Source: a virus. From it: a stretch of 64,000 nt of DNA. The notes below the pieces were generated by a model that saw only the letters and a list, made by a program, of their open reading frames with translations, had not been told where the DNA came from and did no database searches. The stretch spans positions 18,354-82,353 of IMG/VR virus record IMGVR_UViG_3300036831_000050. One strand, given 5' to 3'. The position numbers were made by a program, and so were the translations under genes. Shown piece by piece: positions 1 through 64,000 of this stretch (positions are counted from its first letter, which is position 1; every line of letters begins with the position of its first letter).

Positions 1-1
1 G

Positions 2-169
2 GCGATGCAGGGTCACTCGCCCATCGGAAACTCGGCCGCGCTTATCAACAATCAGCCGACCATCAATGTGTATGTCGGTCAGGCCAGCGACGCCGGAGCG
101 GTGTATGACGCGATTGACAGGGCGACCGGCAGCGGCCTGGCCTCCACCATGCGATCAGTGGGAGCATAG
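2..169 (+). CDS. 3' end of probable tape measure protein (partial)
   Basis: Open frame ...INNQPTINVYVGQASDAGAVYDAIDRATGSGLASTMRSVGA* directly before the distal-tail-like gene; typical TMP C-terminus and position. Confidence 0.5.
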   Translation, partial: AMQGHSPIGNSAALINNQPTINVYVGQASDAGAVYDAIDRATGSGLASTMRSVGA

Positions 170-171
170 AC

Positions 172-615
172 ATGGCACGTGTGACGTTCACCGACCCGGC
201 GACTGGCGACACCTACACGTGGCCCAACAACCCTGCGCCTAACGAGATAACTCAAGCTGCGTCGAAGTCGCGGAGCATCGACCGCACTTCCTCCACCGGC
301 AACGTCGGCCTGGTCAAGCAGCAGGGCGACGACGGCGCCTACATCGTGCACTGGGAGCCGTCGGTGTTCACGCGCGAGCATGAAGTGCAGCTCTGGAGCT
401 GGTACACGCTGTCATCGAAGCAGACCATCTATCTGGCCGACTGGGATGGCAACGTCTACGAGGGTCAGATCATCACGCTCTCGAAGCAGGACATTGGCGC
501 ACTGGGCGGACCGGGTGACATACCCGACCGGCTCATGTACGCCAAGTACGTGTTCGAGTTCGAGGTGTACTCGTTCATCGCGGGCATCTTGGCCGACGCC
601 GGGGTTCGTGCATAG
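172..615 (+). CDS. Minor tail protein (distal tail-like)
   Basis: 147 aa; lies between the TMP end and a large tail protein. Confidence 0.55.
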   Translation: MARVTFTDPATGDTYTWPNNPAPNEITQAASKSRSIDRTSSTGNVGLVKQQGDDGAYIVHWEPSVFTREHEVQLWSWYTLSSKQTIYLADWDGNVYEGQIITLSKQDIGALGGPGDIPDRLMYAKYVFEFEVYSFIAGILADAGVRA

Positions 616-3600
616 TGAAGACCATTCCCGAGACCGTCCTGGCACGCTGGCTGTCAGGGGAGCTGGTCGGACAGGCCAAGCACCAGATGGTCGTGCGCGT
701 TCGGCCTGGTGTCGTCATGCGCCAGTACGCCGAGCTTGAGCGCATCGACCTGGCCAAGTGGCCGCACGTCACACCGATGATCTACGACGGCGACAATTCG
801 ACACCGTGGCAGGGTCAGTGGGTGCCGCTAGGCGACTGGGTGACGCTACCGCACATACAGAGCAGCAAGTACACCCGGAGCTTTGACCAGAACGGCAGTT
901 CCACGCTAACTGTCGTTCAGGACAACATCGCCTTCACGCCCCAGTCGGGCTTCGCGGGCATCTACCGCAACATCGAGCGCGGGTACTTCTCGCCGTCGCG
1001 TGGCATTGTGCTCAGCTCTCGGCCGAGCCTGTGGACCGAGACCGGCTGGACGGACGTGCTCAACGGCGGCTACCAGATCGAGCTATGGGAGGGCTACGGT
1101 CTGGACCGCGACCCGTCCGTCATTCCACTAGAGACCCCCGACCCGGTGACGCACTCCTGCGCCCCACCCGATGCGGCGATCTCCCGCACGTGGACGGGCC
1201 TCATCGAGACCGTCGATCTGGAGTCACAGCCCGACCACATCACCCTGACATGTCGGGACTTCGGCATTCTCTTCACCGACCAGTACCTCCAGCATGCCAA
1301 CAAGGACCCCGCCATCATCGCGCCGACCACCTTCGCGGACCGGCGCACCACGATGGGCGAGCAGGCGGTCCAAGCCCTGCTGCCGCCGCCGAGCGGTGCC
1401 AACGGCGGTGGCCTACAGGGTAACTCTTACGAGGCCGTAGGCACGGAGGGTGCATATCTGAAGAAGCACGGCTACTTCGCCTTCACCACATCGAGAGCGT
1501 CGTCACGGTTCACCACCCCGGCCGACGCCAAGGTGGACACGTACAACAGCACCTACCCGTGGGAGACCACCTCGTTCGTGCTGGCGAATGGCTGGGTGTC
1601 AGCAGCACAGGCCCACCCGAACGACTATCAATGGCTGGAGATGGACCTTCCGGCTGGTGAGTACAGCGAGTTCGACATGGCACTGCCGTTCGCCCAGGAG
1701 GCATGGGTGTCCATCTACGTTGGACCTGGCGGGGGCTGGTATGACGACAAGACCGGGCTACTGCCCGAGGGCTGGGCCGACCCCGACGGGAACGGCGACA
1801 CACCGCTCGGCATACCGTTCGTCCACCACTTCGGCACTGTTCCCCCGTCGTGGGTGCCGGGTACTGACAAGGCCGGGAATGTCATCAACGCGACGACGTA
1901 TGCCGGTCCGCTTCAGTTCGGCCACGACTTCGTGGTGCCGAAGGGGTCAAAGCTGCGTGTCACATTCGGCAAGCTCAAGTTCCGCGACCCCTCCTATGAC
2001 ACCGCGCCACCGTTCCCCGCAGGACTGTGGGAGAAGTTGACCACCGAGATACAGAGCGTCTTGCCAGTACGGGATGCACGTGACCTAGTTGCGCGCGATC
2101 AGAAGGGGGTCGATGCCTGGAGTTCCGAAGTCAACAAGATGAAGGCATGGCAGTCGCAGGCCCACCACTGGGTGAACACCCCCTCGGAGTGGCCGTCGTG
2201 GTGGACCGATGTGATGAGAGGCCAGCTCAACAACGTCCCGGCAGGCAGCGTGAAGATCAACGCCCCTGTCATGCAGGGCACGACCATGGGACCTGACGTA
2301 CTTGTGCTCCCCAACCCTCACTCCCCCGACGGGTTTGACTACTTCGCCACCAACTACGACCACGGGCAGATCGACCGGGCCAACGACAAGAAGAGCTGGA
2401 GCAGTGAGCCGGTTGCCTGGTTTGACAGTCAGCTCAAGAATGCCGAGGCCCAGCTCGATGCCTGGCAGCGGCAGCTCAAGGGCGATCAGGAGTTCCTAGA
2501 CCAGGCCATCAAGGCCAAGTCGGTGGCGGCGACGGCGAAGGCGCGGCTTGCCGCACTCATGTCAAATTACAAAGAGCTGTGGATCAAGGACTCCCATCAT
2601 CGCCCCGGCTACTACGCTGGGTGCAACTACCTGCGTGCGTACAGAGTGTCAAAGACCGACCCGTCCGTCGATGTGGGTCAGTTCGACATGGGCGGCGCGC
2701 CGGTCAACGCCGAGCACTGGGTGCTCGTAGACGACGCCTCTGAAGTCATCACCCAGCTCTGCATCTGGCTGGGCTTCAAGGAATGGGACATCGACCGCTA
2801 CGGATGGTCACTTGTCAACCCGATGCAGTGGGGCATTGACAAGTTCTTCATCGACGTGGTGAATGACATGCTGGGCCAGGGCAACTACGTGTTCTTCATG
2901 GGACCGCCCACCGAGGACGACCGCAGCATCGGCGTGCCGAGCTTCAAGCAGCAGCGCGCAGTCGCCAACCCGGTGCCTGACATGCTTCAGGTAGACGACC
3001 ACCTCCTCACCGAAGCAGCGCAGATGAAATGGGACCTGTCCACGCTGCCGGGGCAGTTCATCTACCGGGGCGACCCAGTGCCGACGGACGGCTCGCGCGG
3101 TCCCGGCCAGACGTATGAGAACGATCTGGTGGACACTTACATGGCAACTTACGTTCCGCCGTGGGCTGGCGCGGAGAACTGGACACCCCTCGACGGCTCA
3201 GACCCAATGACAGTGGACCCGCCAAACAGGGTCGCCGGAGTCATGCGCCACTTCATTCAGACCGTCGGCGTCAACGTCGTCATCGGCCTCACCTCCAACG
3301 AGGAGTGCCTGTTCGCCTGCCTGCTGGCGGCCGTGCAGTACGCGCTCGGCATCGCCACCGGACAGGTTCAGGTGCCTGGTCTCGCGGTCCCGCAGCTCAA
3401 CGACCAGATCAGCGTCGTTGACGAGGGGAGTGGCATCAACTCGCGCATGTGGATCGCCTCGATTGACAGCGAACACACGGGCGGCTCCAACGGCATGTGG
3501 AAGATGGTCATATCAGGGTCTTACATCGACCACGTGGACATGGTGCTGGTGCTCGATGACTACTGGGCAGCACTCAAGGCGTACCAGGCACTCAAGCAGG

Positions 3601-19444: not shown

Positions 19445-20049
19445 CTACGTGGCGGCCGTCGTCGTTCCTGACTGCTTGAGCTTGTGCTGGTGCTTCGCCC
19501 CCGTCGTGTGGGTCCGGGCGATGTTGACAGCGATGGCGTGGACGCCCTGCGTGGTGCCCTCGTAGTCACACATCGTGCACTTCGGGGTGTAGCTGCCGTC
19601 GCCGTTCCAGCGTACGGTGGCCACGTCGCCCTCGCGGACGATCTCCTCGCCGTCGTCAGTGAACCTGACGCTCACGGTGCCCTCCTCGCGGCGGCGTTGA
19701 GCGCGTCTAGCGAGTGCTGCATGCGCTCCACCTCGTCCTTCAGCTCCATGAGCTTCTGTTCGGTGTAGTGGGCCTCCAGGGGGATGGCGGCGCGCATCGC
19801 CTCCTCCATGGTGTCGAAGTCGCCAGCGCGTCCCTCCCATCGCTGCTGGTTCTTCCAGCGTTTGACGTGACTGCCCACCTCGTCCAGCGCCAGCACCCAG
19901 TCCTCGCGGTCGTCCTGGCCATCGCCAAAGCCACCATGGGCGCGCAGCCAGCGCAGCCCGTCAACCTCCACCTCGGCGTCGTACTTCATCTCCCGCCAGT
20001 GCCCCACCTTCAGCATGGCAGGCTGGTCCCAGTAGGTGATCTCGCTCAT
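19445..20049 (-). CDS. Two hypothetical proteins (19445-19675 C2H2-like; 19672-20049)
   Basis: Coupled leftward ORFs; CTMC...H....H. Confidence 0.6.
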
Positions 20050-20609
20050 GTGATTCCCCTTCTACGGGCAAACTCAGGTCCGGTGCTAATGCCTGGCTCC
20101 CAGTCTCGCTGGCGCCCCTTGTCCGGGCCGGGGCCGAGCACGGCCTGCATTGCCGCGCGAGACTCGGCCTCGGTCTTCACGTCGCGGTCGCGGAAGCCGA
20201 TCTCCAATGTGACGCCAGCCTCCATGACCCAGAGGTGGGTCTGGTTGGCCTGGTCCACTAGACGGCTCTCGCGCGGGAACAGCTCGAATGCCTCCCGCTC
20301 CCAGCCTGCGATCTCGTTCTTGATCGACTGGAGGTGACGCCAGTCACGGGCAGGCTCGCGGTCGTACCGCTTGATCGACAGGTGCAGGGCGCCTCCCTTG
20401 CCGCGCGGCTCGATGTAGCGCACGATGACTTCGTACTGGTCGTTCGCCCACACCTCATGCACTTGGTCAACGAACGGATTGGCCGACGCCCCTGACGTGT
20501 GGAACGCCGCCATCTTCCTGACGAACTCCGGGTCGATGGGCCTCTGTGTCAGGGGTGTCCACCCAGAAGCCTCTCCACTCTCCGCCGTGCTCTGTGGTGA
20601 CGGTTCCAT
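20046..20609 (-). CDS. Conserved phage hypothetical protein
   Basis: HLSIKR.D...DWR.LQ.IKNE...E.FP.ESRLVD.AN..HLW motif common in phages. Confidence 0.7.
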   Translation of the reverse strand: MEPSPQSTAESGEASGWTPLTQRPIDPEFVRKMAAFHTSGASANPFVDQVHEVWANDQYEVIVRYIEPRGKGGALHLSIKRYDREPARDWRHLQSIKNEIAGWEREAFELFPRESRLVDQANQTHLWVMEAGVTLEIGFRDRDVKTEAESRAAMQAVLGPGPDKGRQRDWEPGISTGPEFARRRGIT

Positions 20610-20881
20610 GCTGTATCGCTCCCTCGTTCGCTAGGTGTTGTAGGTGCCTGCCGAGCCAGCGCCGTTCGTTCCGGCGACGGCGGTTCAGCGACTTCCACTC
20701 CGGGGTGTCGGCCCAGAGGTAGTACAGGTCAGTGGCGGACTGCGGTTCGCTCGTAAGCAGCGGCACCGGGTCGCCGTACTTCTCGATGAGTGGGTGTGTC
20801 ATAGCCGTGGCCAGTAGTAGCCGAGCATCATGCCCGCGATGAACGCGAGCACGCCGACCGCGAAGCACCAGCCGACGGTGC

Positions 20882-21904
20882 TCATGCTGCCAGGCCCATG
20901 CGCCGAGCGAACTCCTCCGAGGCCGCCCCGAACGCAGAGGACACGTCACTGTTCGCGAGCTTGACGTACTCCATGGTCTGCTCGATGCGAGCGTGACCGG
21001 CCGCGATCTGCATTTGGACCAGCGGGATGCCCGCAGCGGCCCAGCCAGTGATGGCAGTGTGACGCAGGCGATGCCAGCGCCACGGTCCCAGGATGCCCAG
21101 CGACTCGCGGAAGCTCCGCACGCTGAGCGGTGCGAGCTGCTGATCGCGCAGCCCGTCACGTGTCAGGGCCAGCCACGGTGAATCGTGGTCCGGCCTTAGC
21201 AGCCAACGCAAGTCCAGCCATTCGCGCATGCACTCCCTGGCGTGGGGGAAGTAGGGCACGGCACGCATCTGCGGCACGCCCGGTCCCTTCTTCGCGGTCC
21301 TGACCACCACGTCGGTGTTGTCGTAGTGGAGCGCCGGGATGGTAAGCGTCATGATCTCGATGCTGCGTAGCCCCTCCTCGATGGCGAGCGCGATCTGTGC
21401 CTCCAACTGCACGCGCCGTGCGTGGCGCAGGAGGTGACGGCGCATCGCCGGAGACTTGCCCTGCACGAACCGCGTGAGCAGGCGAGACCCGCGCCCGTAG
21501 GCAGGCAGCGCCGGGTACACCTCAGCCAAGCGGCGCCGCATCTCCGCGACTTCGCTCTGCTTGTAGGGGTTCGGCTTGCCGTGGCTGGTGCTGCCACGCG
21601 GGTTAGGAACAGACTGAAGTTGAAGCGTACGGTCCGTGTCGATGAGATCGGCCTCGCTAGCCCAGGTGATGAACGAGCGGATCATGATGCGGTACTTGCG
21701 CGTGGTGTTCGGGGACACACCGCGCTTCAGCTCGGCGCCCAGGAACGTGGTGAAGTCCTGTCGCGTCAGCTCGATGAGCGGGTGGTCCAGTCCGGCCTCG
21801 AAACGACGAAGGACGCGGAGCTGTTCGCCGCGCCGGTCGGGACTGATGCTGTTCACCTCAAGGTACTCGGCCTCGAAGCGGGAGAGGAGTGTGTCGGTGT
21901 CCAT
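20882..21904 (-). CDS. Tyrosine recombinase / integrase
   Basis: SAM-like N-terminus (SPNTTRKY); catalytic R (GLRSIE), K, HRLRH, GH and Y (TMEY). Confidence 0.9.
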   Translation of the reverse strand: MDTDTLLSRFEAEYLEVNSISPDRRGEQLRVLRRFEAGLDHPLIELTRQDFTTFLGAELKRGVSPNTTRKYRIMIRSFITWASEADLIDTDRTLQLQSVPNPRGSTSHGKPNPYKQSEVAEMRRRLAEVYPALPAYGRGSRLLTRFVQGKSPAMRRHLLRHARRVQLEAQIALAIEEGLRSIEIMTLTIPALHYDNTDVVVRTAKKGPGVPQMRAVPYFPHARECMREWLDLRWLLRPDHDSPWLALTRDGLRDQQLAPLSVRSFRESLGILGPWRWHRLRHTAITGWAAAGIPLVQMQIAAGHARIEQTMEYVKLANSDVSSAFGAASEEFARRMGLAA

Positions 21905-21928
21905 GTGGGTCTCCGTGTCGGGTGATGG

Positions 21929-21964
21929 GGCGCGGTGCTACACGGTACGGTGTAGCACCGCGCC
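21929..21964. repeat. Perfect 15-6-15 bp inverted repeat upstream of the recombinase
   Basis: GGCGCGGTGCTACAC-ggtacg-GTGTAGCACCGCGCC. Confidence 0.85.
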
Positions 21965-21972
21965 TGAGGCAA

Positions 21973-22812
21973 CTACGTGGCGAAGGGGTCGTCGCCCTCC
22001 TGCTGGAACTCCGGCTCGGTCGGCACGCCGGGACGCTCCTCTTCGACACGCGCACCCACGGCGGCCAGCTCGCCGCCCTCGACCGGCTCAGTAGTCGAAC
22101 CAGTCGTCCCAGCGGCGTCGGCTGGGGTAGGGTCCGGCTCGGGGGTAGAGGCAGACTCCTGTCCACCCGTAGGAGGCGCTGAGGGAGCCGGAGCGGCCGT
22201 CTGAGCGGCAGCCTTGGCCCCGGCCTTGGAGCCGGTCCCGTTCCGCGATGCCCCGGCCTTGGCGGAGGACCGCTTCGGCTTCGGCTTGGCGCCGGACAGG
22301 GCGGCCTCGGCAGCGGTGAGCTGCTTCAGCTCGTCGGCCCGGTTGGCCTCCAGCTTGGCGTGCGAGTCCTTCTCGCTGTTGTAGACCTTCTCGGCCTCAG
22401 CGACACGCCGCGCCGACTCGGTGATCTGCGCCTCGATCTCCGACTTGCGGTGCCTGATCGCCTGGAGTGGCGTCATGGCCCTCGCCTCAGCGACCGGAGC
22501 GGGCGCAGGGGCAGGCGTGGGGCGCCGTGGCGCCCTCCGCGTGGTGCTCTTGCGTGTCGCGCTCCGTCGCGTGCTCGGCTTGCGAGTGGTGCTCTTACGA
22601 GCCGTGCTCTTCCGGGCAGTGCTCTTGCGAGCGGTGGTGCGCTTGGCACCGGCACGCTTGGTGGTGGCACCCGACGCGCCCATGCGGCGAATGTGCTGGT
22701 AGATGCTGTTGACGTTGACCTTGAGCGTCTTCGCCACTTCGGCGGGAGTCTTGCCCTGGTCAAGCAGGTCTTTGACCTGCTTCTGCTTCGGTGTGAGTGT
22801 GGCAGTGGCCAT
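21973..22812 (-). CDS. HTH DNA-binding protein with histone H1-like repeats and coiled coil; repressor candidate
   Basis: LTPKQKQV...KTPAEVAKTLKVNVNSIYQHIRR HTH; (K/R)STARK repeats; GAGGAGG RBS; operator over its promoter. Confidence 0.75.
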   Translation of the reverse strand: MATATLTPKQKQVKDLLDQGKTPAEVAKTLKVNVNSIYQHIRRMGASGATTKRAGAKRTTARKSTARKSTARKSTTRKPSTRRSATRKSTTRRAPRRPTPAPAPAPVAEARAMTPLQAIRHRKSEIEAQITESARRVAEAEKVYNSEKDSHAKLEANRADELKQLTAAEAALSGAKPKPKRSSAKAGASRNGTGSKAGAKAAAQTAAPAPSAPPTGGQESASTPEPDPTPADAAGTTGSTTEPVEGGELAAVGARVEEERPGVPTEPEFQQEGDDPFAT

Positions 22813-22850
22813 GCGGCCCCTCCTCTGGTTGGTTGATGTGTAGCTCACGG

Positions 22851-22867
22851 TGTTGCACTGTACTACA
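22851..22867. promoter_or_regulatory. 17-bp operator overlapping a leftward -10 (TACAGT)
   Basis: TGTTGCA-ctg-TACTACA. Confidence 0.7.
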
Positions 22868-22969
22868 GGTGGCGGTTAGTTGTGAGATGTTTCTGCCAGT
22901 TCGTCCACCATCTCGGCGGCGGACTCATGGCTCATGCCGAACGTCTGGCCCAGCGCGTCGATGATTTCG

Positions 22970-23887
22970 TCACGCGGGTACTCCAGCGTCAGGCACAGGC
23001 GTGTCATCGCTTCCGGCGTTGTCAGCCTGCTCGGTATCGACATGACGCTCTCCTCTCAGGCGTCGGCGGGCCTCGTCGGCCAGCATGAACTTGACGGTGC
23101 GGCCAAGACTGGTCCCCAGCACGGCCTCGGGTTCCTTCAGCGTGCCACTGTCCCCAGGTGCCAGCCAGGACCCGTACTGGCAGTGGAAGTAGACCTTGCG
23201 CGTCCCGTCCACGATGATGCGGGCATGCCAGTAGCCGCCCGTGGGATGGCGGCCGAAGGTGTCTTGGCCACGGGCGTCCTTGTCGTATCGGATGCGGCGC
23301 AGCTCGTAGTCCTCACCGATGGCCTGGTTGAGCGCCTGTCGGGCGGCTCGGCTGGCCCGCTCGACTGCCGTGTCAGTCCTCGCCACCTCCCACCTCCAGT
23401 TGCGTCGTAATGGTGGTCACGCAGCAGCCCCGGCACACGGGGCATGCGATGCGTAGGGTGGGCGCGCCGATCTGGCCCTCGCCCTGGCAGCGTCCGCACG
23501 GCACGACGGCGACCCCGGCCATCGCCCGCTCGATGAGTGCTCTCTCGCCGTTCATGACTCCTCCAGTTCTCGTAGTCGTGTGCGACCGTGGTCGGTGATG
23601 GTGTAGTAGACGCGCCGTCCTCGGAAGAACGCACCGCTCCGGCGCGCTGGCTTGGCGTAGTTGTGGTGGGACAGGCGCACGAAGACCTTTTGCAGCGTGC
23701 GCTCGTTCCAGCGGTTAGGCTCGTCCTCGGTCCAGCTATGCGCACTGCCCGTGCCCTTGCGCTCTGTCATGACGCGCAGCACGACTCTCTCCTCATAGGT
23801 ATGCAGTGCTCGGCGGTACTTGTAGGCCCTGGAGATTTTTCGCCACGGCGAAGTCCGCCTCTTACGACGCAACTTGAGTGGCGTCAT
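22970..23887 (-). CDS. Three hypothetical proteins (22970-23386, 23373-23555 Zn-finger, 23552-23887 possible winged helix)
   Basis: Coupled leftward ORFs; CGRC/CPVC; YYTITDHGR. Confidence 0.55.
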
Positions 23888-24615
23888 AGGGCACGCCTCG
23901 ACTCTGCGATGGCCAGCCCCGTGTCTCCCACCCACGGGTTTGGCAGGCCGTGAATGCGGACCACGGTGGGCGACCAGCGGTCGTAGATGTCGGCCGCAGT
24001 GCTCATGCCCTGGCCCAGCAGGCCCTCGCCAATGCTGTCGTGACTGACGAACAGGTCGAACAGCACGCCGTCAACCGGCTCGATGCTGCTCGGGTCCACC
24101 GTGTAGAAGTCGTCGCACACGATGTCCAGCTTGTCGTGGGGCACGTGGGGCGCCACCAGCCTTATCACGTCCCGCTCGCGCTCAACGACCGTGATGTGCT
24201 CGACGCGGGGGTTCGCGGTCAGCGTGTGGACCATGAGGCCCAGGCCGAGGCCAGCACACAGCACGTGGCCGGTCAACGCCTCCGCGTGCTCCTCCATCGC
24301 CCACCAGTGCGGCGGGTCGTCCACCATCCACGTCTTACCACCAATCTGGAGATCAGTGATAGGCAGCGGGCGGTTGTTCTCGAAGTACAGGAAGCCGCGC
24401 TGCATGTAGTTCCGGTAGATGCCGGGTGTGTACTGGAACGTCACGATCTCCGCCTTGCCCACGCGGGTGCGCGGGTAGTCGGTGGCTGGCGTGTGCCAGG
24501 CGTCCAGCCTCACGGTGTCACTGCGCAGCGGGCCACTGGTGATGCCGCCGCACGTGAGGCAGACGTACTGCTTCGGGCGCACCGACGGGCGCAGGCATGT
24601 GCACTGGTTGGGCAT
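23884..24615 (-). CDS. SAM-dependent methyltransferase / spermidine-synthase-like protein
   Basis: HVLCAGLGLG motif I, ITVVERE, DIVCDD, DGVLFD. Confidence 0.7.
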   Translation of the reverse strand: MPNQCTCLRPSVRPKQYVCLTCGGITSGPLRSDTVRLDAWHTPATDYPRTRVGKAEIVTFQYTPGIYRNYMQRGFLYFENNRPLPITDLQIGGKTWMVDDPPHWWAMEEHAEALTGHVLCAGLGLGLMVHTLTANPRVEHITVVERERDVIRLVAPHVPHDKLDIVCDDFYTVDPSSIEPVDGVLFDLFVSHDSIGEGLLGQGMSTAADIYDRWSPTVVRIHGLPNPWVGDTGLAIAESRRAL

Positions 24616-26916
24616 CAGATGACGCCCTCCACTGCCCAGCCAAAGCTCCCCCAGCGCGGCTCGGTCGGGGCCTTCGGACCGACCAGGCGCACGCGGTGCT
24701 CGACGCGATTGCGTGGCTGGTAGCTGCGCTCGATCTCGTTGGAATCACTCTCGCTGGCGGGCCGACACATGTCGAAGCGCAGCATGTCGATGGGGAACTG
24801 GCCGGTGCCAGCGACGGTGAAGTTGTACGTCCGGGGAATCTTCGGGTAGGTTCGCGGGACGCCTCTAGCTCGGGTCATGTCAACTCCGTTCGGTTGGGAT
24901 CGTATGGCAGCTTGAGAATCGGGAAGTCGTGGCGGCTGTTGTCGTACCGGGCCGGGTCGTGCTGTTCGAGGGAATGGTGGATCAGCTCCGAGGTGAGGCG
25001 GTCCAGCATCGGGAGGCCGAACTTGCCGTCGTGGTCGTTGACCAACCGCACATCGAAAGTTAGGCCGTAGTAGCCCCAGTGCTCGGGCGGCAGGAACTTC
25101 ATCTTGGTCTCGGGACTGCGCGCCCTGTCCAAGTGCTGTAGCGGGAATGTCAGCTCCAGCATCTCACCGTCCGGCGCCACACACCAGGCGTGAGCCAGTG
25201 GCACGCCGTAGCCTGTCGTGTAGTAGCCCTCGCAGTAGGTCAGCGACGGGTCGGCGTTGGCGGCGTTCTGTGCGTTGGCGAAGCAGTGCCCCAGGTCGCC
25301 TTGGTGCGGCATGTACTGGGCGGGCAGCAGGCGGCCGGGGTAGAACTTGCCGTGCCTGAGCGCAAGGTCAGCACCCCCGCGATAAACGTAGCCGTCACCT
25401 GGCGAAAATTGCGCAGCCTCTTCCAGTCGCTTACGACGCAGCTCAAGTTCACGGGTAAGCGATGTGCGCACGCGCTCCTCGGGACTGGGCAGCACGCCGT
25501 CAAGGAAGGTCATTGCCGCTGCTCCCACCTCTCCAGCGTCGTAGCCGCGACGGCGCGTGCGTCGGCCGTGGACTGGAACTGGTGTCCACGGGCCTCGGCC
25601 ATGCAGAGCTGCTGAAGTGACTCGATGTGCTCCTCGGCCGCCGCGAGCCGCTTGAGCAGGTAATCAACGTCCTCGGCGGAGTGTGCGATGAAGTCGGCGT
25701 CTGGGACGTGTAGACCCTTGAAGTCCTCACGGTAGAGCGCGTCCTTCACGCCGATGGCGCCGCCCTGGTCCATCTCCCACTGCGCCTTGGTCCTGTAGCC
25801 CAGCACCTCGTACCGTGGGCCGGACTCGCGGTAGGACCGCATCGAGCCGTCGAAGCGGAACCGTATGTCAGGGTGGACCTGCACGCCGCGAATCAGGTTG
25901 GGGAACTGATCGCTGCTACGGCCGAACTCCAATTGGAGCCAAGTCTCGAAGCGACGGCTGGCCTCGGCCGGGTCCATGTCGCCGCGCATGAACTCGCGCA
26001 GCTCGTCACACAGGCACGGCGGCGGGAAGTCCAGATCGGAGTCACTGTGCGCAGGGCACCACTTGCCGATGACATTCGCGCGAGCCTGCTCCAGTGTGTA
26101 GCTCTCCATCTCGTCCTCGTCGTAGACGTACTGCTCGTTGCGCAGCGTGGGGGTCATGATGTAGAGGCGCCCACGGTCCGGTGTGCCAAGGTAAACCTGA
26201 TCGGTCTCCGTGTTGCCGAACCAGTCCCACGGCGGCGGGGTGATGCTCTCGAAGCGTTCGCGAATCTCGTCCAGCTTGCTGCCGCTGACGGTTGTCATCG
26301 GTCCTCCTCTAGCGCGCGGTTTACGTGGTCGATGACCTGCTGGCGGCTGGTCACTTCTTCAACGGGGAGTGCGGGCTGGCCGATGGCGATGTAGCAGGCG
26401 TCACAGATGACGGTCTCGCCATCGAATGTGCCGTCATCGTCCATGCTGTCGTACCCGCCATAGACGGACACACACTCGCGCCCCTCGTAGCAGTTCGGGG
26501 ATCGCTTGGCTCGGCACTTGATCTGCATTACACGCTCTCCTCTTGGTGGTGGACACTGGCGGCGGGAAGGTCGCCTAGCACGGCGCCGAGATCGGCCTCG
26601 GCCGCCTCGCGCGTGCGGTAGGTCATGAACTCGCCCCGGTTGGTGGCGTAGACCTTGATGACGGCCTTGCCGCCGCACTCGATGACGAACTCGGCCGGTA
26701 CGGTGGCGGCGATGGCCTCGGCCGTGGCCTTGCCGGTGGTGTAGGTGACGGCACTCATGCTGGTGTCACGTCCACCAGACCGACGATGTGGAAGTTGGAT
26801 AGCGCCGACTCCACGTCCAGCGCGATGCCAGCGGCATCGACATCGCCGTCCTCGATGTAGAAGTCGTCGTCCTCCTCGATCTCGACCTGCACGCGAATCT
26901 CAACAACCACACTCAT
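24615..26916 (-). CDS. Six hypothetical proteins (24615-24878, 24875-25513, 25510-26298, 26295-26528, 26528-26758, 26755-26916)
   Basis: Contiguous coupled leftward ORFs; the last (53 aa, acidic) was read directly from the sequence. Confidence 0.6.
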
Positions 26917-28118
26917 AGCTGCCTCGCTCTCTCGATTCCGGCGTCGGTGAGCTGGCGTCCGCCGTGGGTCACGCAGACGTAGCCCTCCTCGATCAGGTAC
27001 GGCTCAACGAACAGCGCCACGGCCTTGGTGTCGCGTGAGTGGCCCAGCGCCGTGGCGATGGTGTTCACGCTGGCCTGGTAGATGACAGTGTTGTCCACCC
27101 GCCGCGTCCGCTTGGAGCGGAGCAGGGACTTGAGCATCTTCTGCATGTCGATGGTCAGGCCGTCTAGCGTGCAGCCGTTCAGATCGCGGACCACGGCCTC
27201 CGCGTCGGCATCGGTCACGGGATCGCAGCCGAGCGCCATCGCATTGCGGACGTAGGTGTTGACCTGCCTCGGGTTACGCCGTGACGCAAGTCCGAAGATA
27301 GCCTCGGCCTCTGGTGTCAGGTGCACTCCGAGCTGCTGCCCGTTGAGGTGGGCCAGACTGGTCATGTCCGCGAAGGTGTAGGGGTCCAGCGTCAGGGTCA
27401 GCGGGAAGCGGTTGCAGAACGCTTCCGGCAGCAGGCCGATGTCGGTGGTGCAGCCGATGAAGGTCACGGCCGGGAAGGGCAGCATGCCGCTCTGTGTCGG
27501 CAGCCGACGGTCCTCCATGACGTGATAGAAGTCCTCGGGGTCGGCAGCCTGCGTGACGCCTCGCCTGTCGCCGGAGACCTGCTGATGAATCTCGTCCACG
27601 ATGACGACATCGCCGTCCTCGCAGGTCGTGCGCAGCGCGTCCAGCGTCGCCAGATCGACCGGGGCCTTGATCTGGTACACACGCCGTCCGCACTCATGAG
27701 CGACGACCTGTGCCAGCGTGGTCTTGCCGGTGCCCGACTGGCCAGCCAGCATGATGTGGTCCAACGGACGACCTGAAGTTCTGCTGTTAGCAACGATGCG
27801 GGCCATGAGGCGCTTGAGCCTGTCCTGGCCGATCATCGTGTCGAACGTGGACGGCCGCAACTTGTTGCCGCTGCGGTCATCGAAGCTCAGTGGCTTGAGC
27901 TGGACCTTCGGGCCGGTGGCACCGTCGCCCCAGATGGCCTGGTGAATCGCGCGCATCTCCCGGGAGAGCGGGTCCTGGCCAACCTCACGCATGAAGTTGG
28001 GGTAGCGGTCGTGGAGACTCTGGCCGTGGCCAGCGGGCACGCGGCCGGTCGGTGTGCCGCCGCCGTGGTCATGGTGTCGGGCGATGCGGGCGGTGCGAGA
28101 AAGATCGTGATGGTGCAT
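26913..28118 (-). CDS. ruvB: Holliday junction branch-migration ATPase RuvB-like
   Basis: LRPSTFDTMIGQ, LDHIMLAGQSGTGKTTLA, DEIH, IGCTT, NPR, EPYLIEEG...THGGRQLT; GGAG RBS before ATG 28118. Confidence 0.85.
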   Translation of the reverse strand: MHHHDLSRTARIARHHDHGGGTPTGRVPAGHGQSLHDRYPNFMREVGQDPLSREMRAIHQAIWGDGATGPKVQLKPLSFDDRSGNKLRPSTFDTMIGQDRLKRLMARIVANSRTSGRPLDHIMLAGQSGTGKTTLAQVVAHECGRRVYQIKAPVDLATLDALRTTCEDGDVVIVDEIHQQVSGDRRGVTQAADPEDFYHVMEDRRLPTQSGMLPFPAVTFIGCTTDIGLLPEAFCNRFPLTLTLDPYTFADMTSLAHLNGQQLGVHLTPEAEAIFGLASRRNPRQVNTYVRNAMALGCDPVTDADAEAVVRDLNGCTLDGLTIDMQKMLKSLLRSKRTRRVDNTVIYQASVNTIATALGHSRDTKAVALFVEPYLIEEGYVCVTHGGRQLTDAGIERARQL

Positions 28119-28146
28119 GTGTGCTCCCATTCGGTAGGGCGGAGAG

Positions 28147-28163
28147 TGTAGCAGCGTGCCACA
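28147..28163. promoter_or_regulatory. 17-bp operator overlapping a leftward extended -10 (TGCTACACT) of ruvB
   Basis: TGTAGCA-gcg-TGCCACA, exact consensus. Confidence 0.75.
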
Positions 28164-28185
28164 CTCTCCGCACTGTCGTGGTTGG

Positions 28186-29241: not shown

Positions 29242-29282
29242 GTGGTCACGCTCCTAACGGTGGGATTGCAGTTGGTCGGTTG

Positions 29283-30980: not shown

Positions 30981-31040
30981 GTTGTGCCTCCAGTGCCGCC
31001 GCGCCGATGTGCGCGGCGGCCGGTCGTCGGTGTCAGAGTC

Positions 31041-33274: not shown

Positions 33275-33275
33275 G

Positions 33276-35023: not shown

Positions 35024-35045
35024 GATGGTCTCCTGTGTAGGTGGG

Positions 35046-38478: not shown

Positions 38479-40409
38479 GTGGCGGACACAGGCATCGTGC
38501 GCGAGCTGCTGGGGTGCGAGTGGGGTCGGGCACTCTCCACACCCGACGATACTGTGCCCTGCGAGGAGCGCGCCGTCGGCTACGTGGTCGTTCACGACGG
38601 CGATGCGGAGGCCGCCTTCAAGCTGTGCCAGCGCCACCACGACCGCCTCTCCCAGGAGACCACCCCGAGGGAGGTGACCGATGGCGCCCCCGCTTGAGCG
38701 CCAGGGCCTTGACCTGCTGCTGGCGAAGTTCCCCGAGGCGACCGTCTACCACGCTGGCCGCCCGCTGGTCTTGGACCGGCAGATGTGCGGCACCGTGATG
38801 GAGACTCCCTGGCTGGCCTGCGACCTGACAGTGGACGGCACCGTGCGCAAGTTCGCTATCTGGAAGACGACCGGCGCGGTGTACGAGCTGGACGAGCACG
38901 GCGCCGTCATGGAGGACACGCTGTTCGGCTACCCCTGCGCAGTGTGCGGCTTCCAGGGCACCTGCGGCGACCCACCCGGAGAGGACTGTCACTCATGAAG
39001 CTCCGCCGTGACCTGCTGAGCGAGCAGGAGATGCGCGACGCCGTGCTGTGCGGCGAGGCCATGGCGCTGCGCCAGATGAACAAGCCGATCTCCCCCGAGC
39101 ACCAGGAGGCCGAGCGCCGACACGCTGCCTGGCGCAAGGCCGAGGAGGAGGGCATGGGCACGGCGCCGGAAGTGACTTACGGGCCAATTCTCGTTTCGCT
39201 GTTAGTCGTGCTCTCGACCATCGGCCTCGCCGTGGCCGTGGGCTTCCTGCTCAGGGACGAGGGCGCACCGAAGTGGGGTGCCGAGCTGGGCGCCATACTC
39301 ACCCTGCTGGTCATGTGTGCCAACTGCCTGCTCTTCGCCGTTCTGTACGCCACTACCCGGAGGTGACAGTGGACGAGAACCCCAACGCATACGACGTACA
39401 GGGCATCGCTGCGGCGCATGACAGCCTCCAGTCGGTGCTCCCACCCCAGCTCGACAAGCTGTGGAAGGCCGGGGCCACGCTGGAGGACATCGAGGCGTCC
39501 CTGGCCGTGGCCGTCCAGTCCTGCTCGATGTACGGCCGTCACCAACACTGCACCGTCACGGTGGCGCTCTCATGATGGTCAAGGTGGAGGTGCTGCATCG
39601 GCACGGCCGTCCCGGCGACACGCCGGTCTGGCAGTCGGCGGCCATGGAGGTGGGCGAGGCCGAGCACTACGTGCCTTCGGACGACCTGATGCAGGAGTTG
39701 CACGACTGCCTGGCCGAGCAGGCGCAGCGGGTGGTGGAGGGCAACGCCTGCGAAGTCACCGTCACCTTCCAGCCAGCCGTATGACCGAGCCTGTCACACA
39801 CATCTACGTGGGCGGGTCGAAGAAGGTGTGGTGCGGCATCAAGCTGGCGCGCGACGCGCAGGGCCACCTCCGCTTCAGCACCCCGGCGCCGATCACCGAG
39901 GGCGAGTTCGTGGACGGCCACCACGGGTCCAGGGACCTATGCCCGGACTGCCGTCAGCGCGTAGTGGCTATCAGGGGCGAGCCTGCGTGACACCCGGCAT
40001 GCCAGCCCAGGACGACGACGAGCCGTGCCCCTGGTGCCAGTGCCCGCCCGAGAAGTACGACGGGCACGCCTGCGACGAGTATCCGCCCCAGCCCGAGCAC
40101 TGTCACCATGAGTGGGTGCTGGGCAACGATGACTGCATACACCGCTGCGGCACCCGGTGGTCAGAGCTTCACCCCGACCACCCCGACATGCTGCTGGACC
40201 CCGAGCCTGGCTGGGAGGGTAAGACGGTCACGGCCAGGGCGCTGGAGCGGTCGGCCGAGGAGCTACGTGCGCTGGCCGACTGGGTACGCGGCGTGAGGAC
40301 CACGCACTACATCATCGACAAGTTCATGGCCCGCCTGTGCCTGCTGGTCACCTTCGCCGCTGGCATGGCCATCGGGGCACTGGTCATGGTCCTGGCCATC
40401 TTCGGCTAG
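38479..40409 (+). CDS. Seven coupled small hypothetical proteins (38479-38697, 38681-38998, 38995-39366 membrane, 39369-39575, 39572-39784, 39781-39990, 39987-40409)
   Basis: Contiguous overlapping starts and stops; several Cys/His-rich; two with TM segments. Confidence 0.6.
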
Positions 40410-54470: not shown

Positions 54471-54924
54471 GTACAAGGGCGTCGCTCCGAAGGGTGGAGA
54501 GCGGGCCGAGGCGGTCACGCTCTTCCTGCGCGTCCCGGCCGTGGACTGGCCACGCATCGTGGTCGGAGAGAAGACCGAGTTCCGCACGACGCCACGCGAA
54601 GGCTCGCGCATGGGCAAGGCTAAGTGTCCAACTCCAGTCGTGGCGTACCGGACGCGGCAGGGCCACGACAACGACTTCAAGCTGCTCCTCTTGCAGGAGA
54701 TGCGGGCCGAGCCGCTGTTCGCCGTGTCCGAGGTGCCGGAGTCGCTGGCTCGCGAGGGCTTCGAGACCTACGACCTGTTCCGGCGCTACTGGCGCGCTCG
54801 CCAGCGCAGGCCGTTCGTGCCGCTGGAGGTGGTGCAGGTCTGGCGGGTGTGCCTGCCGACACAGCGTGACTACCGGGACATGGGCGACCGGCTGCTCTGT
54901 CAGCTCTACGGGCCTTACCTATGA
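54463..54924 (+). CDS. ASCH/PUA-like protein
   Basis: IVVGEKTEFR and LAREGFETYDLFRRYW motifs. Confidence 0.55.
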   Translation: MAKYKGVAPKGGERAEAVTLFLRVPAVDWPRIVVGEKTEFRTTPREGSRMGKAKCPTPVVAYRTRQGHDNDFKLLLLQEMRAEPLFAVSEVPESLAREGFETYDLFRRYWRARQRRPFVPLEVVQVWRVCLPTQRDYRDMGDRLLCQLYGPYL

Positions 54925-55352
54925 CCCGCTTCGGTGAGCCGATCTCGGACCCGCACAGCTTCCATCTGGAGGCGCGCTACCAGGCGCTCTGCGCGGTGTG
55001 TGGGAAGGCCAAGGGATCGCGGCCGGACGGCTTCGGCCGCTACTGGCACGCGCACCACGTCTGCCCGAAGGTAATCTTGAAGCGACTGCACTTCCCGCAG
55101 TACGACACTCGCAACGCCCTGCGGCTCTGTACGGACTGTCACATGGCCTTTGAGTGGGCCGGACCGGGTAAGATCGCCGTGCCCATCACCAAGTGGAAGC
55201 AGCAGAACGTGTGCTATGTCTGGGAGGTGCTAGGCGTGGCAGCGGTGCAGCTCGAAGACAAGTACGGGCCGCTCGATGTGGACGAGCGGTGGGTGAAGCA
55301 TCTATCGGAGGAGTGTGACCATTGTCAGAGAATAACGGCGACGGCCGCGTAG
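54921..55352 (+). CDS. HNH endonuclease (terminase-associated)
   Basis: CAVCG...HAHHVCPK...NALRLCTDCH. Confidence 0.8.
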   Translation: MTRFGEPISDPHSFHLEARYQALCAVCGKAKGSRPDGFGRYWHAHHVCPKVILKRLHFPQYDTRNALRLCTDCHMAFEWAGPGKIAVPITKWKQQNVCYVWEVLGVAAVQLEDKYGPLDVDERWVKHLSEECDHCQRITATAA

Positions 55353-63267: not shown

Positions 63268-63302
63268 GCAACTGAGACCCCTGAGAGGAGCCTGATTTCA
63301 CC

Positions 63303-63914
63303 ATGAGTCCTGGCGTACTGACCCAGCAAGGCGCATACCCGCTACTCGGAACCGGCGCACTGCCCAACGTCGATGTCGCCTCCCCCGGCGAGGTGTGGTC
63401 CTACAAGCGCGCCAACGGCGTCATCATTCCCGGTTCCTGCGTCCGCCCACACGTCGTGGCGGGCATCGAGTGCGTCCAGCCGGTCGTCGCCGGTGACGCC
63501 GTGGTCGCAGCCGGTGACGGCATTCGGTCACAGGCGCTCTCCATCGCGCTGCGTCAGATCATGACGCCGGACTTGAACCCCGGCTCGCAGTTCAACCCGG
63601 CGCTGGGTCCGAACGAGATCGTCAACCTGCCCATCGCGGACCAGGACTACGTGCGCACGTACCACACGGGCGTCGTGCACCTGACACTGGTCAAGCCCGA
63701 CGCGACGTACGCCCCCGATGACATCATCGGCTGGGACGACACGGCGCCGCGTCCGGCCGGGAAGGCGGCTGGCCTCGGAGCCTGGGCCAAGCACAGCGAT
63801 GACAGTGCCGTCATCGCAGGCACCGACATTCTGATCGTGCACACGTTGCCGCGCTACTACGGCTCGAACAACGAGTGCGTCCTGACCTGCCGGTTCCTGC
63901 GGTCCAACCAGTAG
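63303..63914 (+). CDS. Head decoration / capsid-associated protein
   Basis: 203 aa between scaffold and the next strong-RBS gene. Confidence 0.5.
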   Translation: MSPGVLTQQGAYPLLGTGALPNVDVASPGEVWSYKRANGVIIPGSCVRPHVVAGIECVQPVVAGDAVVAAGDGIRSQALSIALRQIMTPDLNPGSQFNPALGPNEIVNLPIADQDYVRTYHTGVVHLTLVKPDATYAPDDIIGWDDTAPRPAGKAAGLGAWAKHSDDSAVIAGTDILIVHTLPRYYGSNNECVLTCRFLRSNQ

Positions 63915-63962
63915 GCAACCAGGCCGACCACCCACGAAAGAACCGAAGGGAGCTACACACAA

Positions 63963-64000
63963 ATGGACGCCCTGGTAGAGCGCGCACTGGCCGAAGTGGC
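63963..64000 (+). CDS. Start of probable major capsid protein (partial)
   Basis: GAAGGGAG RBS then ATG; assigned by synteny only. Confidence 0.4.
   Translation, partial: MDALVERALAEV

What the first reader, a model, noticed from the sequence alone, without database searches (positions are those of the whole stretch)
1..64000. Strand-specific purge of a 4-mer: ATCC nearly absent from the + strand while GGAT is common
Seen: I scanned every + strand ATC by eye (several hundred) and found only two followed by C. One is at 24326, forced by a Trp-Met TGG-ATG codon pair on the minus strand; the other is at 40081. Base composition predicts roughly 200. In + strand genes, Ile before a C-starting codon is consistently ATT or ATA (att ccg, ata cag, att ctc, att cgc), against the genome's ATC preference. 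GGAT occurs dozens of times on + in varied flanking contexts, including inside minus-strand genes (gcc atc ccc at 19782, ggc atc ccg near 21025). The bias therefore follows the DNA strand, not the mRNA. Known: T7 keeps its EcoP15I sites in one orientation to escape Type III restriction, which needs inversely oriented sites. Inference: the host has an orientation-dependent defence recognising a very short asymmetric site (Type III/ISP R-M, a strand-specific modification system, or something acting on one replicating or injected strand), and the phage escapes by polarising all its sites.
Basis: partly seen in the sequence, partly recalled or inferred. Interest (0 to 1): 0.85.

Follow-up and report, generated by a model that had tools for sequence, protein, structure and literature searches.

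The report
One-strand purge of GGAT sites
A soil phage has rewritten its codons so that the four-letter word GGAT points almost only one way along its DNA, most likely to escape a host enzyme that cuts only where two such sites face each other.

Summary
The window has ATCC 2 times and GGAT 71 times. The whole 82,353-bp phage genome has 2 and 84. A synonymous-codon shuffle expects 161±9 and 159±8.

The purge follows the DNA strand, not the mRNA:
- + genes: 1 vs 127 expected.
- − genes: 1 vs 34 expected.
- Uncalled DNA: 0 vs 27 expected.

In + genes, 0 of 133 Ile codons before C are ATC, against 529 of 599 elsewhere.

GGAT is not simply "common". It is itself about 2-fold depleted.

The trait is confined to one clade of uncultured relatives. 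Syntenic outgroups lack it, and one sister pair shows only the GGAT-side depletion. I found no DNA methyltransferase in the phage. Twenty-one six-base palindromes are also purged.

Best reading (0.6): escape from a host, orientation-dependent, Type III-like restriction system that reads GGAT. No host or enzyme was identified. This is a known strategy (T7/EcoP15I; MANTIS) at an unusual scale and with an unusually short site. An overlapping window of this scan noted the same thing.

The parts
1..64000 (.). Whole window (and the other 18,353 bases of the genome): GGAT read on the + strand 71 times, on the − strand (ATCC on +) 2 times
24326..24329 (-). Residual reverse site: TGG-ATG (Trp-Met) in a − strand gene (window 23884-24615). 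It cannot be removed without an amino-acid change.
40081..40084 (+). Residual reverse site: TAT-CCG (Tyr-Pro) in a called + gene (window 39828-40409, no Pfam match). It could be removed by TAT>TAC; either recent, or the gene call is wrong.
19672..35347 (-). Block of − strand genes (integrase, RuvB-like AAA, MoxR-like ATPase and others). Here the purge appears as absence of sense-strand GGAT (Asp GAT after G: 0 of 102), while sense ATCC is kept at 25 vs 37.5 expected.
19782..19785 (+). Example of a tolerated-orientation GGAT inside a − strand gene (sense ATC-C)
21025..21028 (+). Second example of a tolerated GGAT inside a − strand gene
20882..21904 (-). Tyrosine integrase (PF00589, E 1e-14): the phage is probably temperate, which bears on which defences can act on co-oriented sites
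54921..55352 (+). HNH endonuclease (PF13391, E 5e-5) upstream of the terminase. Considered as a possible phage nickase, but conserved in relatives without the purge.

Best explanation
The phage, or its recent ancestors, has been under strong selection from a host restriction system. That system reads the short asymmetric site 5'-GGAT-3' and acts efficiently only when sites in opposite orientation are present on one DNA molecule. Type III enzymes work this way, and so do the related hemimethylating systems MANTIS and Type ISP.

Selection removed essentially every site pointing one way. Removal used silent codon changes (ATC>ATT/ATA before C, NAT>NAC before Pro, TCC avoided after A, GAT>GAC after G in − genes). 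Where no silent change exists, the Trp-Ile and Trp-Met dipeptides appear to have been avoided. All remaining sites are co-oriented, so they cannot form inverted pairs.

The tolerated orientation is also thinned about 2-fold. That suggests the system keeps some activity on co-oriented sites, as reported for MANTIS against temperate phages, or that additional GGAT-containing sites are targeted.

Shown: the counts, their independence from transcription, the codon mechanics, and the distribution across lineages. Inferred: that the agent is a host nuclease, its site, and its requirement for inverted sites.
For: 1. Size and exclusivity. ATCC 2 vs 161±9 expected; GGAT 84 vs 159±8. This is the top-ranked 4-mer for both asymmetry and depletion.

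2. It follows the DNA strand. + genes 1 vs 127, − genes 1 vs 34, uncalled DNA 0 vs 27. The codon tables agree.

3. All 16 N-GGAT-N contexts are empty or nearly empty in the reverse orientation, so the core is the 4-mer.

4. Signs of protein-level selection (small counts). Trp-[Ile/Met] in − genes is 1 vs 5.7 expected in G000 and 1 vs 4.3 in G002. The weakly affected relative G001 has 4 vs 4.4. Of the 5 residual reverse sites in G000 and G002, 4 are TGGATG, and 2 of those are confirmed Trp-Met in called − genes.

5. It varies between lineages.
- Affected: G002 (63.6 kb) 3/43 vs Markov 153/166; G004 2/8 vs 27/35; L024 0/2 vs 7/10.
- Partly affected: G003 8/24 vs 48/67.
- Weakly affected: G001 119/175 vs 211/258, and G005.
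- Not affected: G006 235/201 vs 263/246; L025 66/85 vs 73/98; L027 60/66 vs 65/63.
All affected genomes fall in one terminase clade (support 98/96). Gene order and gene strand are the same in affected and unaffected genomes.

6. L003 and L023 are sisters (100/98) next to the purged G004. They keep ATCC at expectation (21 vs 19.9; 8 vs 10.0) but have low GGAT (5 vs 11.6, 0 of 300 shuffles as low; 5 vs 10.8, 1 of 300). The strand that is spared is therefore not fixed by genome architecture.

7. In the 81%-identical L003/G004 alignment, the 21 ATCC of L003 correspond in G004 to ATTC 7, ATCT 3, ATAC 2, ACCC 2, five other words once each, 1 shared ATCC and 1 gap. The differences are not all C>T.

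8. Restriction avoidance is this phage's habit. Twenty-one six-base palindromes and four asymmetric 6-mer pairs are at 10% or less of expectation. PF01555, PF02086 and PF00145 methyltransferases were not found in 0 of 4 genomes searched.

9. Precedent. T7 carries all 36 EcoP15I sites in one orientation. [quoted passage not shown] MANTIS still restricts temperate phages through direct repeats, less efficiently (bioRxiv 10.64898/2026.09.23.753747; abstract and sections 8 and 10 read). Type III Mod1 of Mycoplasma hyorhinis SK76 is assigned a GGAT-centred 6mA motif (PMC13736764, passages).
Against: No host and no defence gene were found. The terminase finds no prophage relative in 185,579 species genomes, and the only information on source is 'soil metagenome'.

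A strict Type III enzyme would still have targets, because two reverse sites remain, and one of them (40081) could be removed silently.

A strict inverted-pair rule does not predict the 2-fold depletion of the tolerated orientation. That depletion depends on context: [A/C]GGAT, GGAT[A/T] and GGATNT (0 of 84, about 12 expected) are thinned, while GGGAT[C/G] is at expectation.

Classical Type III, ISP and MANTIS sites are 5-7 bp. A 4-bp site rests on one inferred methylome assignment in a mollicute.

The L003/L023 evidence comes from contigs of 6.6 and 4.1 kb and is only a 2-fold effect. It could equally be the clade-wide GGAT thinning with the ATCC purge relaxed.

G002 lacks the early-gene region, so an early phage gene shared only by the purged genomes cannot be excluded.
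Confidence: 0.6

Rival explanations
1. A host site-specific nicking enzyme, or a short-range two-strand cutter, reads GGAT and cuts a fixed strand relative to the site. With sites on both strands, nearby opposed nicks become double-strand breaks. With all sites co-oriented only one strand is nicked, which is repairable but costly. That would give a total purge of one orientation and a partial thinning of the other.
For: It accounts for both the near-total purge and the 2-fold depletion of the tolerated orientation, and for the variation between lineages. Frequent-cutting nickases with 3-bp sites are known from chlorella viruses (recalled, not checked here).
Against: At about 160 sites per strand in 82 kb, only a few tens of opposed pairs would lie within some tens of base pairs (my estimate). 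Selection should then remove close pairs, not every one of about 160 sites, including those far from any partner. No such enzyme was identified. I have no data that separate this from the Type III-like reading.
Confidence: 0.1
2. A process of the phage itself uses or attacks GGAT on one strand. Candidates are T5-like site-specific nicks made by a phage nuclease, a strand-specific modification, or a replication or packaging step that always exposes the same strand.
For: The phage has an HNH nuclease (window 54921-55352) and an RNase H gene (56069-56593) next to the terminase. Many small early genes have no known family: 22 of the 50 proteins scanned had a Pfam match at the thresholds used. G002 lacks the early region, so a shared early gene cannot be excluded.
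Against: The HNH, terminase, portal, DnaB helicase, RuvB-like ATPase and the gene order and strands are all conserved in relatives without the purge (G006, L025, L027, and largely G001). The RNase H gene has no match in any of the 9 relatives compared. L003 and L023 spare ATCC but thin GGAT, which a fixed-strand process does not predict. GGAT is depleted rather than kept at expectation, which is odd for a signal that the phage uses.
Confidence: 0.1
3. A strand-specific mutational process, not selection on sites. For example, an ssDNA cytosine deaminase with an ATCC preference acts on the strand that is single-stranded during replication and erodes the motif.
For: In the L003/G004 comparison, 10 of the 19 positions that differ are C-to-T type (ATTC 7, ATCT 3).
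Against: The other 9 of those 19 are not C>T (ATAC 2, ACCC 2, then GTTC, ATAA, ATGC, GTCG and GTCT once each). In G000, 20 of 133 Ile-before-C codons are ATA, and NAT>NAC before Pro is a T>C change. C>T dominance is expected anyway, because ATC>ATT is the main silent option. An 80-fold depletion that includes non-coding DNA needs an implausibly strong and specific pressure. Syntenic relatives with the same replication genes lack it.
Confidence: 0.05
4. Codon-pair or translational bias, or a longer symmetric site, produces an apparent 4-mer asymmetry.
For: Most genes (74 of 93 called) lie on the + strand, so a sense-strand bias could mimic a DNA-strand bias.
Against: The purge has the same DNA polarity in − genes (1 vs 34), where it is the opposite mRNA word, and in uncalled DNA (0 vs 27). 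All flanking contexts are purged. GATC is abundant (220 in the window) and GGATC occurs 27 times against GATCC 0.
Confidence: 0.01

Closest known systems
Phage T7 and EcoP15I (Type III R-M): all 36 CAGCAG sites in one orientation
   Same: An asymmetric site kept on one strand only across the whole genome, regardless of local gene function. Explained by an enzyme that needs inversely oriented sites (as summarised in bioRxiv 10.64898/2026.09.23.753747 section 10, and PMC6286503).
   Different: The site here is 4 bp, not 6 bp. About 160 sites had to be removed, not about 18. The tolerated orientation is also about 2-fold depleted. Two reverse sites remain. The host and enzyme are unknown. The phage has an integrase.
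MANTIS (Gao_RL, BREX-related) and strand-biased depletion of its sites in Pseudomonas phages
   Same: Hemimethylation of short asymmetric sites. Inverted pairs are restricted robustly. Direct repeats are still restricted, less efficiently, in temperate phages. That matches a strong purge of one orientation plus a mild thinning of the other in a phage with an integrase.
   Different: MANTIS sites are described as 6 bp and its hosts are Pseudomonas. Nothing here links this soil phage's host to MANTIS.
Type III Mod1/Res1 of Mycoplasma hyorhinis SK76, assigned a GGAT-centred 6mA motif
   Same: The same four-base asymmetric word assigned to a Type III methyltransferase (PMC13736764, passages read). 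This shows that such a short Type III specificity is plausible.
   Different: The assignment there is inferred from methylome, proteome and modelling. It is a low-GC mollicute, unrelated to the 65% GC soil phage lineage here. No phage data.
Ordinary avoidance of palindromic Type II sites by phages
   Same: The same genome also shows it: 21 six-base palindromes at 10% or less of expectation. The mechanism is the same (silent codon choice).
   Different: Palindromes cannot be strand-polarised. The GGAT purge is one-sided. A survey of dsDNA phages reported no systematic strand-asymmetric avoidance (PMC6286503, discussion passages).

Membership tests
Strand-polarised site avoidance against an inverted-pair-dependent restriction system (T7/EcoP15I type) | The site is asymmetric and present essentially on one strand only, genome-wide | tested here: met
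   ATCC 2 vs GGAT 84 in 82,353 bp; null 161±9 and 159±8
Strand-polarised site avoidance against an inverted-pair-dependent restriction system (T7/EcoP15I type) | Polarity is independent of transcription direction and also holds in non-coding DNA | tested here: met
   + genes 1 vs 127; − genes 1 vs 34; uncalled DNA 0 vs 27
Strand-polarised site avoidance against an inverted-pair-dependent restriction system (T7/EcoP15I type) | Either strand can be the spared one (only co-orientation matters) | tested here: inconclusive
   L003 and L023 spare ATCC and thin GGAT about 2-fold. The contigs are 6.6 and 4.1 kb, and the pattern may be relaxation of the purge rather than a mirrored purge.
Strand-polarised site avoidance against an inverted-pair-dependent restriction system (T7/EcoP15I type) | The tolerated orientation is selectively neutral | tested here: not met
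   GGAT 84 vs 159±8. In − genes, Ile before C is ATC in 16 of 34, against 146 of 157 elsewhere.
Strand-polarised site avoidance against an inverted-pair-dependent restriction system (T7/EcoP15I type) | The host encodes a system with that specificity which requires inverted sites | not testable with these tools
   Host unknown. No prophage relative in genome contigs. The source is a soil metagenome.
MANTIS-driven strand-biased depletion | Six-base asymmetric hemimethylated site | tested here: not met
   All 16 N-GGAT-N contexts are purged in the reverse orientation, so the core is 4 bp. The site length of MANTIS is taken from the section heading.
MANTIS-driven strand-biased depletion | Graded orientation preference: inverted pairs strongly restricted, direct repeats weakly restricted (in temperate phages) | tested here: inconclusive
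   The pattern fits (80-fold vs 2-fold; integrase present). It is only a sequence footprint.
Phage-made strand-specific nicks (T5-like) | A phage-encoded nicking enzyme present only in genomes with the polarity | tested here: not met
   The only nuclease candidate near the packaging genes, the HNH, is conserved in 8 of 9 relatives compared, including non-purged G006, L025 and L027. Early genes were not all comparable.
Self-protection by a phage DNA methyltransferase | A DNA methyltransferase gene in the phage | tested here: not met
   PF01555, PF02086 and PF00145: 0 of 4 genomes (G000-G003) with a match at E<=0.01. Other methyltransferase families were not searched.
Codon-pair bias | The bias follows the mRNA sense strand | tested here: not met
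   The purged mRNA word is the opposite one in + and − genes

The most novel reading that the evidence does not exclude
The footprint records a defence not yet described in soil high-GC bacteria. It would read only four bases (GGAT), communicate between sites, and have a graded orientation rule (inverted pairs lethal, co-oriented sites mildly harmful, with preferences for flanking bases). Its pressure would be strong enough to re-code over 130 isoleucine codons and to deplete Trp-Ile and Trp-Met dipeptides in phage proteins. Related phages (AGGAT/ATCCT 11/0 in G001; GGAT-only thinning in L003 and L023) would be tracking variants of its specificity. If so, phage k-mer polarity could be used to read out specificities of orientation-dependent defences from metagenomes without culturing hosts.
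Probability: 0.25. Interest if true: 0.75.

Novelty: new member of a known kind. Interest (0 to 1): 0.6.

Why it matters
Escape from Type III-like enzymes by pointing all sites one way is a textbook idea that rests on few examples. One survey of dsDNA phages found no systematic strand-asymmetric avoidance (PMC6286503).

This case is unusually clean and extreme. The word is four bases long, and about 160 occurrences have been removed from one strand by silent re-coding. Protein sequence may be affected too. Close relatives show the state before or without the purge, and intermediate states.

It predicts a GGAT-reading, orientation-dependent defence in uncultured soil bacteria. It also shows that such specificities can be inferred from phage sequence alone. 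The partial depletion of the tolerated orientation is a handle on whether such systems are strictly dependent on inverted pairs, or graded.

Tried and rejected
Identifying the phage or host:
- Megablast of window 1-20000 against GenBank phages gave no match.
- tblastn of the terminase gave 1 record, GX15bay, at 28.9% identity.
- tblastn of the 565-aa protein and of DnaB gave only distant hits, across unrelated hosts.
- The terminase, alone and as an alignment, found no relative in genome contigs.
- No tRNA genes in the window.
- The Rpf-like domain that suggested an actinobacterial host is weak (PF06737, 25.7 bits, below the 27-bit cut-off). I do not claim a host phylum.

Finding more relatives:
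- DnaB and the 565-aa protein found none in viral contigs.
- The L003 portal found no new contig.
- The capsid protein added L043 and L044. L043 is not depleted. L044 has GGAT 27 vs 45 and ATCC 68 vs 62. I did not follow L044 further.
- L028-L030 (about 1.1 kb each) were counted but are too short to use, and I left them out of the tree.

Reads. Logan contigs of four soil runs were laid on window 24001-44000. They gave only short, low-depth, mostly divergent pieces. Nothing about site polymorphism could be drawn, and I draw no conclusion on habitat beyond the run label.

Literature. The searches found no report of a one-strand GGAT purge in a phage. PMC3983042 (passages) did not give a 4-bp Type III motif.

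Ideas rejected:
- A GATC-related effect: GATC is abundant.
- A Shine-Dalgarno-like explanation for AGGAT depletion: outgroups L025 and L027 are not depleted.
- A terminal or packaging polarity: the physical ends are unknown, and the contig has a 126-bp repeat between its last bases and bases 20-145.

Full report
**What the window is**

The window is bases 18354-82353 of an 82,353-bp virus record. The record is 65.5% G+C and CheckV estimates it 94% complete. Its last 126 bases repeat bases 20-145. The only run that holds all the sampled words of window 52001-62000 (1 of 7 listed) is a soil metagenome run, which may be the source sample.

The genome is a tailed phage. Features found:
- A large terminase (window 56586-58343; weak PHROG match) and a 797-aa portal-sized protein next to it.
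- A 2,075-aa ORF in the tail-gene region, with a tail-fibre-like protein downstream of it.
- A DnaB-type helicase, a sigma-70-like factor and a tyrosine integrase.
- A PD-(D/E)XK exonuclease, a RuvB-like ATPase and a MoxR-like ATPase.
- An HNH nuclease and an RNase H gene just upstream of the terminase.

It has no close relative among GenBank phages. No prophage relative turned up in one genome per prokaryote species. The host is unknown.

**The observation**

ATCC occurs twice on the window's + strand, at 24326 and 40081. GGAT occurs 71 times. In the whole genome the counts are 2 and 84.

I made my own gene calls from GC3 contrast (93 genes covering 82% of the genome). I then shuffled synonymous codons within each gene, which keeps every protein and each gene's codon usage.
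- The null gives ATCC 160.6±8.6 (minimum 133 in 500 shuffles) and GGAT 159.4±8.0. A repeat gave 161.6±9.0 and 158.6±8.0.
- ATCC is therefore about 80-fold depleted.
- Among all 4-mers this pair ranks first for strand asymmetry and for depletion against a Markov expectation.

**It follows the DNA strand**

ATCC counts against the null:

| Region | Observed | Expected |
|---|---|---|
| + strand genes | 1 | 126.6 |
| − strand genes | 1 | 33.9 |
| 14.5 kb outside my gene calls | 0 | 26.9 (Markov) |

The codon tables show how this was achieved.
- In + genes, Ile before a C-starting codon is never ATC (ATC 0, ATT 113, ATA 20). Elsewhere ATC is 529 of 599.
- In + genes, NAT before Pro is 1 of 170, and TCC after an A-ending codon is 0 of 40.
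- In − genes the opposite mRNA word is avoided. GAT after a G-ending codon is 0 of 102, against 60 of 244 elsewhere. GGA before T is 0 of 50.

In a − gene, the only codon pairs that cannot be fixed silently are TGG-ATN (Trp-Ile and Trp-Met).
- These dipeptides are rare in − genes: 1 vs 5.7 expected in this genome and 1 vs 4.3 in relative G002. The weakly affected relative G001 has 4 vs 4.4.
- The residual site at 24326 is exactly such a Trp-Met.
- The one at 40081 is TAT-CCG in a called + gene and could be removed silently.
- Of the five residual reverse sites in G000 and G002, four are TGGATG.

Codon-pair bias, a longer palindrome and a GATC effect are therefore excluded. All 16 N-GGAT-N contexts are empty or nearly empty in the reverse orientation.

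**The tolerated orientation**

GGAT on the + strand is at 40 vs 102 in + genes and 25 vs 37 in − genes. In − genes, Ile before C is ATC in only 16 of 34, against 146 of 157 elsewhere. This thinning is also a DNA-level effect.

It depends on context:
- AGGATN, CGGATN and GGAT[A/T] are about 3-fold down.
- GGGAT[C/G] is at expectation.
- GGATNT is absent: 0 of 84, with about 12 expected from the shuffle's 14%.

**Relatives**

The terminase, portal and capsid proteins retrieved uncultured relatives from IMG/VR and metagenomes. I fetched four larger contigs in full. All are oriented like the window.

| Genome or contig | Size | ATCC obs/exp | GGAT obs/exp |
|---|---|---|---|
| G002 | 63.6 kb | 3/153 | 43/166 |
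| G004 | 10.6 kb | 2/27 | 8/35 |
| L024 | 3.9 kb | 0/7 | 2/10 |
| G003 | 21.3 kb | 8/48 | 24/67 |
| G001 | 80.2 kb | 119/211 | 175/258 |
| G005 | 12.4 kb | 27/36 | 24/47 |
| G006 | 85.8 kb | 235/263 | 201/246 |
| L025 | 21.7 kb | 66/73 | 85/98 |
| L027 | 13.9 kb | 60/65 | 66/63 |

Expectations in the table are Markov. Codon-shuffle nulls agree.

A terminase tree places every affected genome in one clade of nine (support 98/96). The unaffected G006, L025, L026 and L027 lie outside it.

Gene order and gene strand are the same in affected and unaffected genomes. This includes the − strand block, DnaB, the RuvB-like ATPase, the HNH, the terminase and the portal. A process built into the phage's replication or packaging therefore does not explain who has the purge.

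Each relative also has its own list of purged words.
- G000: 21 six-base palindromes, plus CACGAG, CGTCTC, GACCTC and GAGCCC on both strands.
- G006: 27 palindromes plus CACTG/CAGTG. It is also low in CCCAG/CTGGG.
- G001: AGGAT 11 vs 46 and ATCCT 0 vs 39, while [C/G/T]GGATG is at expectation.

This is the signature of host-specific restriction pressure on a phage family that relies on site avoidance. Three DNA methyltransferase families gave no match in G000-G003.

**A possibly mirrored case**

L003 (6.6 kb) and L023 (4.1 kb) come from different metagenomes. They are sisters (100/98) next to the purged G004.
- L003: ATCC 21 vs 19.9; GGAT 5 vs 11.6 (0 of 300 shuffles as low).
- L023: ATCC 8 vs 10.0; GGAT 5 vs 10.8 (1 of 300 as low).

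L003 and G004 are 81% identical over 6.1 kb. The 21 ATCC of L003 align in G004 to ATTC 7, ATCT 3, ATAC 2, ACCC 2, five other words once each, one shared ATCC and one gap. None of the GGAT sites is shared.

So within about 19% divergence one lineage carries the ATCC purge and the other does not. The differences at those positions are not only C-to-T.

L003 and L023 might be a lineage purging the other strand. They might instead be a lineage that lost the ATCC pressure and kept the milder GGAT pressure. The contigs are too short to decide. Either way, the spared strand is not dictated by genome architecture.

**Mechanism**

A host system reads GGAT and acts efficiently only on inversely oriented sites, so a genome with co-oriented sites escapes.

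The principle is established for T7 and EcoP15I. It was recently extended to MANTIS, a BREX-related hemimethylating system. About 40% of virulent Pseudomonas phages show one-strand depletion of MANTIS sites, and temperate phages are still restricted, less efficiently, through direct repeats (bioRxiv 10.64898/2026.09.23.753747; abstract and sections 8 and 10 read).

That graded rule would explain both features here: an 80-fold purge of one orientation and a 2-fold thinning of the other, in a phage with an integrase.

A four-base site is short for such systems. However, a Type III Mod has been assigned a GGAT-centred 6mA motif in Mycoplasma hyorhinis (PMC13736764, passages).

Points against this reading:
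- No host or enzyme is in hand.
- Two reverse sites remain.
- A strict Type III rule does not predict the thinning of GGAT.

Rivals:
- A host nickase whose opposed nicks make breaks (0.1).
- A phage-intrinsic strand-specific process such as T5-like nicks (0.1). The conserved gene set of unaffected relatives weakens this. It is not excluded, because G002 lacks the early region.
- A strand-specific mutational process (0.05).
- Codon-pair bias (0.01; tested and not met).

**Novelty and verdict**

The strategy is known, so I class this as a new member of a known kind. The instance is unusual in three respects:
- Site length: 4 bp.
- Scale: about 160 sites removed, and more than 130 Ile codons shifted to rare synonyms.
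- The availability of relatives without the purge, or with only part of it.

One survey of dsDNA phages reported no systematic strand-asymmetric avoidance (PMC6286503, passages). My four literature searches found no report of a one-strand GGAT purge.

No follow-up on other DNA was found.

Interest is 0.6. It is a striking, clean natural experiment that predicts a specific, testable host defence, but it rests on a known principle and the defence itself is unseen.

Noticed in passing
whole genome (window 1-64000 and L040): Twenty-one six-base palindromes are at 10% or less of the Markov expectation, for example GCCGGC 0/74, GAGCTC 0/65, CAGCTG 0/64, CCGCGG 0/54. Four asymmetric 6-mers are absent or nearly absent on both strands: CACGAG/CTCGTG 0/0, CGTCTC/GAGACG 0/0, GACCTC/GAGGTC 2/2, GAGCCC/GGGCTC 0/0. 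This is a very broad restriction-site purge.
   Followed up: partly
G001 (IMG/VR relative, 80,165 bp; loci L012-L016): A narrower polarised word: AGGAT 11 vs 46 expected and ATCCT 0 vs 39. GGATC 46 and GATCC 16 against about 100 each. [C/G/T]GGATG is at expectation on both strands. Possibly a related defence with a longer or different specificity.
   Followed up: partly
G006 (IMG/VR relative, 85,805 bp; loci L034-L038): No GGAT effect, but two asymmetric 5-mers are nearly absent on both strands: CCCAG 1 / CTGGG 6 (expected 37 / 55) and CACTG 1 / CAGTG 2 (expected 30 / 43). Twenty-seven purged six-base palindromes.
   Followed up: no
window, all 71 GGAT sites (84 in the genome): No tolerated GGAT site is followed by N-T: GGATNT 0 of 84, about 12 expected from the codon shuffle. 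In G002 it is 4 of 43 with about 10 expected. This may be a flanking preference of the same system or a second avoided word.
   Followed up: partly
window 56069-56593 (+): An RNase H gene (PF00075, E 6e-27) sits directly upstream of, and overlapping, the large terminase gene, where a small terminase would be expected. It has no match in any of the 9 relatives compared.
   Followed up: no
window 26913-32276 (−): A conserved module shared with G001, G002 and G006: RuvB-like AAA ATPase, DUF6744 protein, a 565-aa protein of PHROG 24053 (distant matches to a 'metalloprotein chaperonin subunit' of Bacillus phage 0305phi8-36), and a MoxR-type ATPase. Function in the phage unknown.
   Followed up: no
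window 35350-38480: About 3 kb between the − strand block and the rightward early genes has no ORF passing my GC3-based gene call. The two long ORFs there (35584-36528, 36702-37754) have no Pfam match. It holds 7 of the tolerated GGAT sites. Earlier first-stage notes describe hairpins and repeats here; I did not examine them.
   Followed up: no
window 40530-41084 (+): A protein with a weak transglycosylase (Rpf-type) domain: PF06737, E 1.8e-5, 25.7 bits, below the 27-bit cut-off. This is the only hint, and a weak one, of an actinobacterial host.
   Followed up: partly
genome ends (G000 bases 20-145 and 82228-82353): A 126-bp direct repeat between the contig's end and bases 20-145, with 19 unmatched bases at the very start. 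It is probably an assembly overlap of a circular or terminally redundant genome, although IMG/VR classes the record as linear.
   Followed up: partly
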